From assembly GCF_001677475.2 (NCBI RefSeq), contig NZ_CP015229.1: 64,000 nucleotides of DNA. The stretch is one strand, 5' to 3'. Position numbers: made by a program. This DNA is from Escherichia coli (GTDB lineage Bacteria > Pseudomonadota > Gammaproteobacteria > Enterobacterales > Enterobacteriaceae). Shown piece by piece: positions 33,001 through 36,000 of the stretch; the stretch's first letter is position 1, and each line of letters opens with the position of its first letter.

Positions 33001-36000
33001 TCTAGAAGAACATCTTACCAGAATTACACAACATCCGTTGATGAGCGATCTTATCTACTATCCTGCAAAGAAGGGAGATGATGAACCTGAAAACATCCTG
33101 AAAATCGTCAAAGAATGGCGGCGTTCGCAAGGATTGCCTTTGTTCAAAGATTCAGAATGAACTCTAAACAGAATCTGTCACCTGAAAATCATCACGTTCT
33201 GGTTAAGTGATGATTTTCGCTACGAGAAGGTTACGGTGGCGATTGCAGTGATAATAAGCAATGTAAAAAGAAAACATAGGTAAATACTACCTTTCTCTCC
33301 TTCCCTGAACATTCATTTTACATATTAATTCATATAATTGAATTGTTATGCGTTTTATTGCTTGGTGAATCGGTTCAGAGGAAATATTTTTTCGTTTCAA
33401 TTCTGTTAATCTCACCCCTTGATGGGTAAATTTAACATTTGTGCATAGTTACAACTTTGAAACGTTATATATGTCAAGTTGTTAAAATGTGCACAGTTTC
33501 ATGATTTCAATCAAAACCTGTATGGACATAAGGTGAATACTTTGTTACTTTAGCGTCACAGACATGAAATTGGTAAGACCAATTGACTTCGGCAAGTGGC
33601 TTAAGACAGGAACTCATGGCCTACAGCAAAATCCGCCAACCAAAACTCTCCGATGTGATTGAGCAGCAACTGGAGTTTTTGATCCTCGAAGGCACACTCC
33701 GCCCGGGCGAAAAACTCCCACCGGAACGCGAACTGGCGAAACAGTTTGACGTCTCCCGTCCCTCCTTGCGTGAGGCGATTCAACGTCTCGAAGCGAAGGG
33801 CTTGTTGCTTCGTCGCCAGGGTGGCGGCACTTTTGTCCAGAGCAGCCTATGGCAAAGCTTCAGCGATCCGCTGGTGGAGCTGCTCTCCGACCATCCTGAA
33901 TCACAGTATGACTTGCTCGAAACACGACACGCCCTGGAAGGTATCGCCGCTTATTACGCCGCGCTGCGTAGTACCGATGAAGACAAGGAACGCATCCGTG
34001 AACTCCACCACGCTATAGAGCTGGCGCAGCAGTCTGGCGATCTGGACGCGGAATCAAACGCCGTACTCCAGTATCAGATTGCCGTCACCGAAGCGGCCCA
34101 CAATGTGGTTCTGCTTCATCTGCTAAGGTGTATGGAGCCGATGTTGGCCCAGAATGTCCGCCAGAACTTCGAATTGCTCTATGCGCGTCGCGAGATGCTG
34201 CCGCTGGTGAGTAGTCACCGCACCCGCATATTTGAAGCGATTATGGCCGGTAAGCCGGAAGAAGCGCGCGAAGCATCGCATCGCCATCTGGCCTTTATCG
34301 AAGAAATTTTGCTCGACAGAAGCCGTGAAGAGAGCCGCCGTGAGCGTTCTCTGCGTCGTCTGGAGCAACGAAAGAATTAGTGATTTTTCTGGTAAAAATT
34401 ATCCAGAAGATGTTGTAAATCAAGCGCATATAAAAGCGCGGCAACTAAACGTAGAACCTGTCTTATTGAGCTTTCCGGCGAGAGTTCAATGGGACAGGTT
34501 CCAGAAAACTCAACGTTATTAGATAGATAAGGAATAACCCATGTCAGAACGTTTCCCAAATGACGTGGATCCGATCGAAACTCGCGACTGGCTCCAGGCG
34601 ATCGAATCGGTCATCCGTGAAGAAGGTGTTGAGCGTGCTCAGTATCTGATCGACCAACTGCTTGCTGAAGCCCGCAAAGGCGGTGTCAACGTAGCCGCAG
34701 GCACCGGTATCAGCAACTACATCAACACCATCCCCGTTGAAGAACAACCGGAGTATCCGGGTAATCTGGAACTGGAACGCCGTATTCGTTCAGCTATCCG
34801 CTGGAACGCCATCATGACGGTTCTGCGTGCGTCGAAAAAAGACCTCGAACTGGGCGGCCACATGGCGTCCTTCCAGTCTTCCGCAACCATTTATGATGTG
34901 TGCTTTAACCACTTCTTCCGTGCACGCAACGAGCAGGATGGCGGCGACCTGGTTTACTTCCAGGGCCACATCTCCCCGGGCGTGTACGCTCGTGCTTTCC
35001 TGGAAGGTCGTCTGACTCAGGAGCAGCTGGATAACTTCCGTCAGGAAGTTCACGGCAATGGCCTCTCTTCCTATCCGCACCCGAAATTGATGCCGGAATT
35101 CTGGCAGTTCCCGACCGTATCTATGGGGCTGGGTCCGATTGGTGCTATTTACCAGGCTAAATTCCTGAAATATCTGGAACACCGTGGCCTGAAAGATACC
35201 TCTAAACAGACCGTTTACGCGTTCCTCGGCGACGGTGAAATGGACGAACCGGAATCCAAAGGTGCGATTACCATCGCTACCCGTGAAAAACTGGATAACC
35301 TGGTCTTCGTTATCAACTGTAACCTGCAGCGTCTTGACGGCCCGGTCACCGGTAACGGCAAGATCATCAACGAACTGGAAGGCATCTTCGAAGGTGCTGG
35401 CTGGAACGTGATCAAAGTGATGTGGGGTAGCCGTTGGGATGAACTGCTGCGTAAAGATACCAGCGGTAAACTGATCCAGCTGATGAACGAAACCGTTGAC
35501 GGCGACTACCAGACGTTCAAATCGAAAGATGGTGCGTACGTTCGTGAACACTTCTTCGGTAAATATCCTGAAACCGCAGCACTGGTTGCAGACTGGACTG
35601 ACGAGCAGATCTGGGCGCTGAACCGTGGTGGTCACGATCCGAAGAAAATCTACGCTGCATTCAAGAAAGCGCAGGAAACCAAAGGCAAAGCGACAGTAAT
35701 CCTTGCTCATACCATTAAAGGTTACGGCATGGGCGACGCGGCTGAAGGTAAAAACATCGCGCACCAGGTTAAGAAAATGAACATGGACGGCGTGCGTCAT
35801 ATCCGCGACCGTTTCAATGTGCCGGTGTCTGATGCAGATATCGAAAAACTGCCGTACATCACCTTCCCGGAAGGTTCTGAAGAGCATACCTATCTGCACG
35901 CTCAGCGTCAGAAACTGCACGGTTATCTGCCAAGCCGTCAGCCGAACTTCACCGAGAAGCTTGAGCTGCCGAGCTTGCAAGACTTCGGCGCGCTGCTGGA

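What the first reader, a model, noticed from the sequence alone, without database searches (positions are those of the whole stretch)
33184..33218. Perfect 12-bp inverted repeat immediately after the second immunity gene
gaaaatcatcac and gtgatgattttc are separated by 11 nt, beginning 24 nt after the immunity stop codon. It may act as a terminator insulating pdhR from island transcription, although it lacks a long U-tract, or it may mark the right-hand junction of the inserted segment.
Basis: seen in the sequence. Interest (0 to 1): 0.3.

Follow-up and report, generated by a model that had tools for sequence, protein, structure and literature searches.

The report
Stem-loop closing the Usp toxin island
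This is a real, conserved hairpin that follows each intact immunity gene of the known Usp toxin island of E. coli and Salmonella; it is most likely a weak transcription stop or RNA-end protector like the one in colicin operons, so it is genuine but an ordinary kind of element.

Summary
There is a perfect 12-bp inverted repeat (33184-33195 / 33207-33218) with an 11-nt loop, starting 24 nt after the stop of the last immunity gene. It folds at -14.2 kcal/mol, and shuffles expect 0.075 such repeats per window.

The hairpin belongs to the island, not to native DNA. The island is PAIusp (usp = Hcp-ET3-4 plus imu/orfU immunity genes) between aroP and pdhR. The 100-nt segment occurs once in 1058 of 5426 complete E. 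coli genomes, and K-12-type genomes have no trace of it.

It is not a junction structure. A related hairpin follows the immunity genes of the E. coli arrays examined (the window's own internal copy is decayed), every one in two Salmonella islands, and the first two of three in a Superficieibacter island. Pairing is kept through compensatory changes (A-U/G-U/G-C and A-U/C-G). The arms are far less variable than the spacers, and the loop varies (6, 11 or 15 nt).

The best reading is a sense-strand RNA stem-loop acting as a leaky, T1-like terminator or 3'-end stabiliser, with the A- and U-tracts built into the stem. Here it is the last copy, about 20-35 nt inside the island's end.

Homology to colicin T1 is suggestive but not statistically supported, and function is untested. 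It is a new member of a known kind, of low to moderate interest.

The parts
33184..33195 (+). 5' arm of the terminal hairpin (GAAAATCATCAC); GAAAA forms the A-tract
33196..33206 (+). 11-nt loop GTTCTGGTTAA; 10 of 11 identical in the Salmonella L097 terminal copy; the loop is 6 nt in Salmonella internal copies and 15 nt in one Superficieibacter copy
33207..33218 (+). 3' arm (GTGATGATTTTC); the embedded UUUUC forms the U-tract
33161..33183 (+). 23-nt spacer between the immunity stop codon and the hairpin; poorly conserved (61% identity to Salmonella, against 91% for the hairpin)
33219..33240 (+). Sequence after the hairpin (GCTACGAGAAGGTTACGGTGGC). It may be a decayed version of the ACTACAGGAG..ATG leader that follows the hairpin between Salmonella immunity genes. 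This is inference only.
32870..33160 (+). Last immunity gene (imu/orfU family, PF01320), 96 aa. Its 3' end is 97% identical to the Salmonella counterpart.
32486..32520 (+). Internal-type copy of the hairpin after the first immunity gene: GAACATCATCGC[ATCTGGCTAAT]ACGATGATATTA. It is decayed in this genome (-6.1 kcal/mol). Other genomes have a perfect 11-bp version (-17.7 kcal/mol).
32178..32462 (+). First (cognate) immunity gene, 94 aa, PF01320
32630..32869 (+). Orphan colicin-DNase C-terminal fragment preceding the last immunity gene; it contains a stop codon in this genome
30394..32175 (+). usp (Hcp-ET3-4): Hcp + Pyocin_S + Col-Pyo_DNase, 593 aa
33241..33425 (+). Island-linked flank. It is a diverged homologue of the K-12 intergenic DNA (about 55% identity) but is 58-80% identical to the Salmonella island flank.
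33426..33615 (+). Native pdhR upstream region, 98-100% identical to K-12
33616..34380 (+). pdhR; its ATG lies 455 nt after the stop of the last immunity gene

Best explanation
The repeat is the last copy of a stem-loop that belongs to each DNase-immunity module of the Usp island (PAIusp). It forms in the sense-strand mRNA about 23 nt after an immunity gene's stop codon.

Its layout is GAAAA, then an 8-bp core (AUCAUCAC/GUGAUGAU), then UUUUC. This is the layout of a weak intrinsic terminator whose A- and U-tracts can also pair, extending the stem to 12 bp.

I infer that it stops a fraction of the RNA polymerases that start at the aroP P3 promoter. I also infer that it protects the resulting 3' ends of usp-imu transcripts from 3' exonucleases, as described for the T1 stem-loop after the immunity gene of E-group colicin operons.

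Within arrays, repeated leaky stops would give decreasing expression from the cognate immunity gene to the orphan ones. At the array's end the last copy lowers read-through toward the autoregulated pdhR-aceEF-lpd promoter.

Shown here: the structure, its island origin, its recurrence after the immunity genes of E. coli and Salmonella islands, and its conservation with compensatory changes. Inferred: that it acts in RNA, and the termination and stabilisation activities.
For: Structure and statistics.

Part of the module: a homologous hairpin follows each immunity gene in five E. coli loci with 2-4 immunity genes (the window's own internal copy is decayed). The same is true for all 8 immunity genes of two Salmonella islands in the same aroP-pdhR site. 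It also follows the first two of three in Superficieibacter, at another locus.

Selection on pairing: on 15 variants, 91% of cells pair, against 19-59% in slid controls. Three pairs change on both sides (pair 4 A-U/C-G, pair 11 A-U/G-U/G-C, pair 1 G-C/U-A). In Salmonella inter-immunity spacers 1 of 24 arm positions varies, and that change is G-U compatible, against 9 of 23 in the upstream spacer (Fisher p = 0.004). Between E. coli and S. enterica the hairpin is 91% identical, against 61% and 63% for its flanks.

RNA rather than duplex DNA: the loop is 6, 11 or 15 nt among homologues. Most non-Watson-Crick cells are G-U on the sense strand (7 cells at pairs 11 and 12).

Analogy: ColE2, E7, E9 and other colicin-like operons carry a 36-nt GAAU...AUUC stem-loop just after the PF01320 immunity gene. 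That stem-loop is itself supported by covariation (95% paired, 8 pairs with double changes). It is described as the leaky T1 terminator and as an RNA stabiliser (PMC2896534). A Providencia operon shows T1 copies after each immunity gene of a displaced-module array, the same arrangement as here.

Transcription context: usp is reported to be transcribed from aroP P3, with no other promoter identified (PMC7142922). No other stable structure lies between the last immunity gene and pdhR.
Against: No 3'-end or expression data were available, so termination and stabilisation are untested.

The stem is AU-rich (34% GC, 4 of 12 G-C pairs) and the loop is long (11 nt). The consensus terminator scan calls neither this copy nor the Salmonella copies.

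In Salmonella the hairpin lies 5 nt before the Shine-Dalgarno sequence of the next immunity gene, so strong termination is excluded.

All E. coli terminal copies are at least 99% identical, so within E. coli the conservation says nothing. The compensatory changes amount to perhaps 3-4 independent events. One Salmonella terminal copy (L096) and the window's own internal copy have decayed, so selection is not absolute.

Homology to T1 is not established. Covariance models built from colicin T1 score the island hairpins at 13-18.6 bits, E 0.04-2.5, no better than unrelated hairpins. A sequence-only profile finds nothing.
Confidence: 0.55

Rival explanations
1. Passive relic. The hairpin was functional in an ancestral bacteriocin operon (before a lysis gene or a further immunity gene). 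At this terminal position it is simply carried along with the immunity module and has no present role.
For: Nothing is encoded after the terminal copy in the window. The sequence after it resembles only weakly the leader found in Salmonella. The L096 terminal copy and the window's internal copy are decaying. E. coli copies are nearly identical, consistent with recent spread.
Against: The terminal copy is a conservation peak between E. coli and S. enterica (91% against about 62% for its flanks). The L097 terminal copy differs only by two G-U-compatible changes in the arms.
Confidence: 0.2
2. DNA-level element. The repeat is a cruciform or hairpin that marks the 3' boundary of the exchangeable DNase-immunity cassette. 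It would promote module duplication, deletion or replacement, or mark the island's right junction.
For: It lies just beyond the highly conserved 3' end of the immunity genes. Module crossovers evidently occur there, because the same immunity type is followed by the internal-type hairpin in some genomes and by the terminal-type in the window. Arrays vary from 2 to 6 immunity genes. The hairpin is within about 20-35 nt of the end of island-specific DNA.
Against: It has no partner at the left end of the island and no flanking direct repeats above chance. [quoted passage not shown] Ordinary homologous recombination between the 97%-identical immunity 3' ends is enough to explain the array variants. 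G-U (G-T) substitutions are tolerated in the arms, which fits RNA better than DNA pairing.
Confidence: 0.1
3. A palindromic operator in duplex DNA, bound by a dimeric regulator.
For: It is a perfect palindrome in an intergenic region upstream of a regulated operon.
Against: The spacing between the half-sites is 6, 11 or 15 nt in homologues. The copies lie between immunity genes and far (about 350 nt) from the pdhR promoter region. G-T changes break the palindrome but keep RNA pairing.
Confidence: 0.03
4. Native aroP-pdhR intergenic sequence unrelated to the island.
For: None found.
Against: It is absent from the genomes that lack the island, including K-12. It is present once in each of 1058 genomes with the segment.
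Confidence: 0.01

Closest known systems
[quoted passage not shown] 2010, PMC2896534)
   Same: Both lie immediately after a PF01320 colicin/pyocin immunity gene that follows an HNH DNase domain. Both are about 35-36 nt, start with GAA and end with UUC, and have an AU-rich stem with no long U run after it. In related copies both are followed closely by the ribosome-binding site of the next cistron. Both are supported by covariation. In Providencia, T1 copies follow each immunity gene of a displaced-module array.
   Different: The stem is 12 bp with an 11-nt loop, against 16 bp with a 4-nt loop. There is no GGA (CsrA) motif in the loop. No lysis gene follows it. It starts 24 nt after the stop codon, against 6 nt in ColE2/7/9. 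Homology is not statistically detectable (CM E 0.04-2.5; nhmmer finds nothing).
Rho-independent (intrinsic) terminators with paired A- and U-tracts
   Same: A hairpin flanked by a 5' A-run and a 3' U-run that can pair. It sits at the end of a transcription unit and is symmetric on both strands.
   Different: The core stem has only 3 of 8 G-C pairs. The loop of 11 nt is outside the usual 3-8 nt. The U-tract is only 4 U. The consensus scan does not call it.
Intercistronic or 3'-terminal stabiliser hairpins of polycistronic mRNAs (REP-type or operon-internal stem-loops); from general knowledge
   Same: Recurrent stem-loops between co-transcribed genes that could block 3' exonucleases and set differential segment stability.
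   Different: It is not a dispersed repeat family. There is a single terminal-type copy per genome, and copies are confined to this island.
PAIusp (usp plus imu1-3/orfU1-3), also called Hcp-ET3-4 with duplicated immunity genes
   Same: The surrounding locus is this known island: same aroP-pdhR site, same domain architecture and same variable immunity arrays.
   Different: None of the papers searched or read here mentions a hairpin or terminator after the imu genes.

Membership tests
Colicin E-group T1 stem-loop | Lies directly downstream of a colicin/pyocin (PF01320) immunity gene in the same orientation | tested here: met
   The immunity gene is 32870-33160 (PF01320) and the hairpin starts 24 nt after its stop. 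T1 starts 6-32 nt after the stop in colicin-like operons.
Colicin E-group T1 stem-loop | Detectable sequence/structure homology to bona fide T1 hairpins | tested here: inconclusive
   CM R1 (T1 only) scores 13.0-13.5 bits, E 0.65-0.89, below an unrelated hairpin in the window. CM R2 (T1 plus 3' flank) gives the top hit in the window at E 0.53, and 13 of the top 16 hits in island loci are post-immunity hairpins, best E 0.039. The reciprocal CM R3 hits the Providencia T1 copies at E 0.055-0.31. A large default-filter search shows that unrelated hairpins score as high. nhmmer finds no hit.
Colicin E-group T1 stem-loop | Precedes the ribosome-binding site of the next cistron (the lysis gene) | tested here: not met
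   No cistron follows the window copy. Salmonella copies precede the AGGAG of the next immunity gene, not of a lysis gene.
Colicin E-group T1 stem-loop | GGA motif in the loop (CsrA site BS1 in ColE7) | tested here: not met
   The loops GTTCTGGTTAA, GTTCTA and GTCTGGCTAAT contain no GGA. The motif is described in PMC2896534.
Colicin E-group T1 stem-loop | Partial termination of operon transcription and stabilisation of the mRNA | not testable with these tools
   This needs 3'-end mapping or reporter assays.
Rho-independent terminator | G+C-rich stem with a loop of 3-8 nt | tested here: not met
   4 of 12 pairs are G-C and the loop is 11 nt. The consensus scan does not report it. The Salmonella 6-nt-loop copies are not reported either.
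Rho-independent terminator | U-tract immediately 3' of the stem | tested here: inconclusive
   GCUACGAG follows the full stem. UUUUCGCU follows the inner 8-bp stem (-8.6 kcal/mol).
Island junction element (terminal repeat or att site) | A matching copy at the other end of the island, or flanking direct repeats | tested here: not met
   The arm sequence is found nowhere else in the window. The left-against-right flank local score of 47 equals the shuffle mean of 45.8.
Island junction element (terminal repeat or att site) | Located exactly at the boundary with native DNA | tested here: inconclusive
   Diverged homology to K-12 starts about 33240-33260, 20-40 nt after the hairpin. High identity resumes only at 33426.
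Native aroP-pdhR intergenic sequence | Present at this site in island-free genomes | tested here: not met
Any Rfam family | Match to a curated covariance model | tested here: not met
   No hit overlaps 33184-33218 even at E up to 10.
Conserved RNA stem-loop (generic) | Pairing maintained by compensatory substitutions across homologues | tested here: met
   91% of cells pair and 3 pairs have double changes, with G-U intermediates; both controls are lower. Arms are less variable than spacers (p = 0.004).

The most novel reading that the evidence does not exclude
The hairpin is a dedicated boundary element of nuclease-immunity cassettes, not just a weak terminator. It could be an RNA or DNA site recognised by the immunity proteins themselves. 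Imu3 binds DNA and RNA (PMC3917654). From memory, and not checked here, ImmE7 was reported to act on its own operon mRNA. Such a site could autoregulate toxin and immunity expression, or define the unit that is exchanged when new DNase-immunity modules displace old ones. This would explain why stem-loops sit right after PF01320 immunity genes in colicin operons, the Usp island and many Pseudomonas pyocin loci.
Probability: 0.08. Interest if true: 0.55.

Novelty: new member of a known kind. Interest (0 to 1): 0.27.

Why it matters
PAIusp is a widely used marker of uropathogenic E. coli, present in about one fifth of complete genomes. It sits directly upstream of the regulator of the pyruvate dehydrogenase operon. 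usp is reported to be transcribed from the aroP P3 promoter toward pdhR (PMC7142922). Whatever ends that transcript therefore decides whether the island perturbs central metabolism.

The hairpin is the only candidate structure in the 455-nt gap. Its recurrence after the immunity genes of E. coli and Salmonella islands also gives a simple, testable explanation for graded expression of cognate and orphan immunity genes.

This is a modest, useful annotation rather than a surprise.

Tried and rejected
1. Native sequence: rejected.

2. Megablast put the right junction at 33426, 210 nt from the hairpin. MAFFT and local-alignment statistics then showed diverged homology to K-12 from about 33240-33260. 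The hairpin is therefore near the end of island-specific DNA, but not at it.

3. Direct repeats flanking the island: none above chance.

4. Rfam: no family.

5. Consensus terminator scan: calls neither this copy nor the Salmonella copies.

6. Homology to colicin T1 was tested with three covariance models and one nhmmer profile. The hits are suggestive in rank (top hit in the window; 13 of the top 16 in island loci; Providencia T1 at E about 0.06). None is individually significant, unrelated hairpins score as high, and nhmmer finds nothing. I therefore do not file the hairpin as a T1 member.

7. DNA-level search of plasmids with the immunity gene plus hairpin found only one E. coli record listed among the plasmids and a weak Salmonella hit.

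8. The minus-strand ORF 33287-33415, which the hairpin could terminate, is cut to 24 aa in Salmonella, so it is not a gene.

9. dsDNA operator: rejected because of the variable half-site spacing.

10. The first MAFFT alignment of the variants put its gaps in the 3' arm. I redid it with N-padded loops and one loop trimmed, so loop columns carry no information.

11. Literature search for a described terminator or hairpin in PAIusp: none found in the held library.

Full report
**Observation**

The window holds a perfect 12-bp inverted repeat, GAAAATCATCAC (33184-33195) and GTGATGATTTTC (33207-33218), separated by 11 nt. It starts 24 nt after the stop of a 96-aa ORF (32870-33160) that is a colicin/pyocin immunity protein (PF01320, E 6.5e-28).

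As RNA it folds at -14.2 kcal/mol on the + strand and -13.3 on the - strand, z about -6. Perfect 12-bp repeats with 3-20 nt loops occur at three sites in the window, against 0.075 expected from shuffles. The arm occurs nowhere else in the window. It is the most stable 40-nt fold between the immunity gene and pdhR.

**Context**

- aroP lies at 28497-29870 on the - strand.
- A 593-aa Hcp + Pyocin_S + Col-Pyo_DNase protein lies at 30394-32175.
- It is followed by an immunity gene (32178-32462), an orphan DNase C-terminal fragment (about 32630-32869) and the second immunity gene (32870-33160).
- pdhR starts 455 nt later, at 33616.

This is the known small island PAIusp (usp plus imu/orfU genes), also described as Hcp-ET3-4. 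[quoted passage not shown] None of these papers mentions a hairpin or terminator.

**Native or island-borne**

Island-free genomes, including K-12, match at high identity only from 33426 onward. The K-12 intergenic region contains neither arm. The 100 nt that include the hairpin occur exactly once in 1058 of 5426 complete E. coli genomes. They are always on the chromosome, always at least 99% identical, and unannotated. The hairpin is island-borne.

**Junction**

Megablast puts the junction 210 nt downstream. However, window 33241-33425 is a diverged homologue of the central K-12 intergenic DNA (local score 67, against 36.8 +/- 6.6 in shuffles). That stretch is far closer to the Salmonella island flank (58-80% identity) than to K-12 (about 55%), and it switches to 98% K-12-like at 33426.

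Island-specific DNA therefore ends about 20-40 nt after the hairpin. There is no matching repeat at the left end.

**Recurrence**

E. coli islands carry 2, 3 or 4 immunity genes. Each is followed, 23-26 nt after its stop, by a hairpin of one of two types:

- Terminal type, identical to the window's, after the last gene.
- Internal type, GAACATCATCGC[GTCTGGCTAAT]GCGATGATGTTA, after the others.

The window's own internal copy (32486-32520) is decayed: -6.1 kcal/mol against -17.7 in other genomes.

Salmonella islands at the same site have 2 or 6 immunity genes. The inter-immunity spacers are 69 nt and each contains GAAAATCATC(A/G)C[6 nt]GTGATGATTTTC, 5 nt upstream of AGGAG and 16 nt upstream of the next ATG. 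A terminal copy with the 11-nt loop follows the last gene.

Superficieibacter has the internal type after its first two immunity genes, at a different locus. The hairpin is thus part of the immunity module, not of the junction.

**Selection on pairing**

- On 15 variants, 91% of cells pair, against 19-59% when partners are slid.
- Pair 4 is A-U or C-G, pair 11 is A-U, G-U or G-C, and pair 1 is G-C or U-A.
- In Salmonella spacers 1 of 24 arm positions varies, and that change is wobble-compatible, against 9 of 23 spacer positions (p = 0.004).
- Between E. coli and S. enterica the hairpin is 91% identical, against 61% and 63% for its flanks.

Loop length varies (6, 11 or 15 nt) and most non-Watson-Crick cells are G-U on the sense strand. 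Both points favour an RNA stem-loop over a duplex-DNA operator. The independent events are few (about 3-4), and two copies have decayed.

**Mechanism**

The 5' GAAAA and 3' UUUUC are part of the stem. The inner 8-bp hairpin (-8.6 kcal/mol) is followed by UUUUCGCU. This is the layout of a weak intrinsic terminator with pairing A- and U-tracts.

The consensus scan does not call it, because the loop is too long, the stem is AU-rich and no T run follows the full stem. Its position just upstream of the next immunity gene's ribosome-binding site in Salmonella means it can only be leaky.

I infer a leaky terminator and 3'-end stabiliser for P3-initiated usp-imu transcripts. The terminal copy would reduce read-through toward pdhR. 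None of this is measured here.

**Comparison with the colicin T1 stem-loop**

ColE2, E7, E9 and other colicin-like operons carry a 36-nt GAAU...AUUC stem-loop right after the immunity gene. It is strongly supported by covariation. It is known as the leaky T1 terminator, an mRNA stabiliser and a CsrA site (PMC2896534).

A graded series of 5' arms links the two: ColE GAATGCC, Salmonella colicin GAATACC, Xenorhabdus GAATACCCG, Providencia GAATATCAAT and GAACATCAAT, E. coli internal GAACATCATC, and terminal GAAAATCATC. A Providencia operon shows T1 copies after each immunity gene of a displaced-module array.

The formal tests are not significant:

- A T1-only model gives 13 bits, E 0.65-0.89 in the window, below an unrelated hairpin.
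- A T1-plus-flank model ranks the hairpin first in the window (E 0.53) and ranks post-immunity hairpins 13 times in the top 16 in island loci (best E 0.039).
- The reciprocal model hits the Providencia T1 copies at E 0.055-0.31.
- A wide search shows that unrelated hairpins score as high.
- nhmmer finds nothing.

I therefore say it works like T1 and may descend from it, but I do not file it as a member.

**Verdict**

The hairpin is real, island-borne and conserved, and it is a new member of a known kind (a post-immunity-gene stem-loop or weak terminator). The junction idea is right only in the sense that this is the last island feature before diverged native DNA.

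Noticed in passing
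window 33241-33425: The flank between the hairpin and the pdhR promoter region is about 55% identical to K-12 but 58-80% identical to the flank of Salmonella islands. It switches abruptly to 98% K-12-like at 33426. The island haplotype therefore carries about 190 nt of diverged native intergenic DNA shared across genera.
   Followed up: partly
window 30529-30558: A perfect 13-bp inverted repeat, AACGCCATTACCA[4 nt]TGGTAATGGCGTT, lies inside the Hcp-domain coding region of usp. It is the most stable 40-nt fold of the whole island (-20.4 kcal/mol).
   Followed up: no
window 32486-32520: The window's own internal copy of the hairpin (after the first immunity gene) carries two arm mismatches and folds at only -6.1 kcal/mol. 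The same position in other E. coli genomes is a perfect 11-bp stem (-17.7 kcal/mol).
   Followed up: yes
window 32870-33160 compared with L003 and L004: The same immunity type is followed by the internal-type hairpin in 3- and 4-gene arrays (protein ends ...KDSK) and by the terminal-type here (...KDSE). The 2-gene array of the window therefore looks like a deletion by recombination between the near-identical 3' ends of immunity genes.
   Followed up: partly
window 34454-34501: A long hairpin, GAACCTGTCTTATTGA[16 nt]TCAATGGGACAGGTTC, lies in the pdhR-aceE intergenic region. It scored higher (18.4 bits) against the T1 model than the finding itself.
   Followed up: no
L015, L017, L021, L025, L028, L037, L041, L045, L055-L057 (Pseudomonas), 5-20 nt after the immunity stop codon: Many Pseudomonas pyocin-immunity genes are followed by a conserved hairpin, GCAYCTGCTCAT...ATGAGCAGRTGC, often without a T-tract. 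This may be a separate conserved post-immunity element.
   Followed up: no
L069 2495-3360 (Providencia burhodogranariea): A bacteriocin operon with a displaced module. In order it has an immunity gene, a T1 hairpin, a truncated lysis ORF fused to an orphan DNase C-terminus, a second immunity gene, a T1 variant (pair 4 T-A to C-G) and an intact lysis gene.
   Followed up: partly
L059, L091, L069, L074, L038, L092, between the immunity stop codon and T1: A small hairpin with GGA in its loop (GCTAAAGGATTAGC or GTTAATGGATTAAC) precedes T1 in several colicin-like operons but is missing in ColE2, E7 and E9. It looks like a possible extra CsrA-type site.
   Followed up: no
L096 3279-5377 (S. enterica subsp. 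salamae): Six tandem immunity genes are separated by 69-71-nt spacers, each with the hairpin. This is the largest array seen here.
   Followed up: partly
window 22813-22842: Another perfect 12-bp inverted repeat (AACGCTGGCGTG, 6-nt loop), unrelated to the island.
   Followed up: no
window 33287-33415, minus strand: A 42-aa ORF points toward the hairpin. In Salmonella it is cut to 24 aa, so it is probably not a gene.
   Followed up: yes
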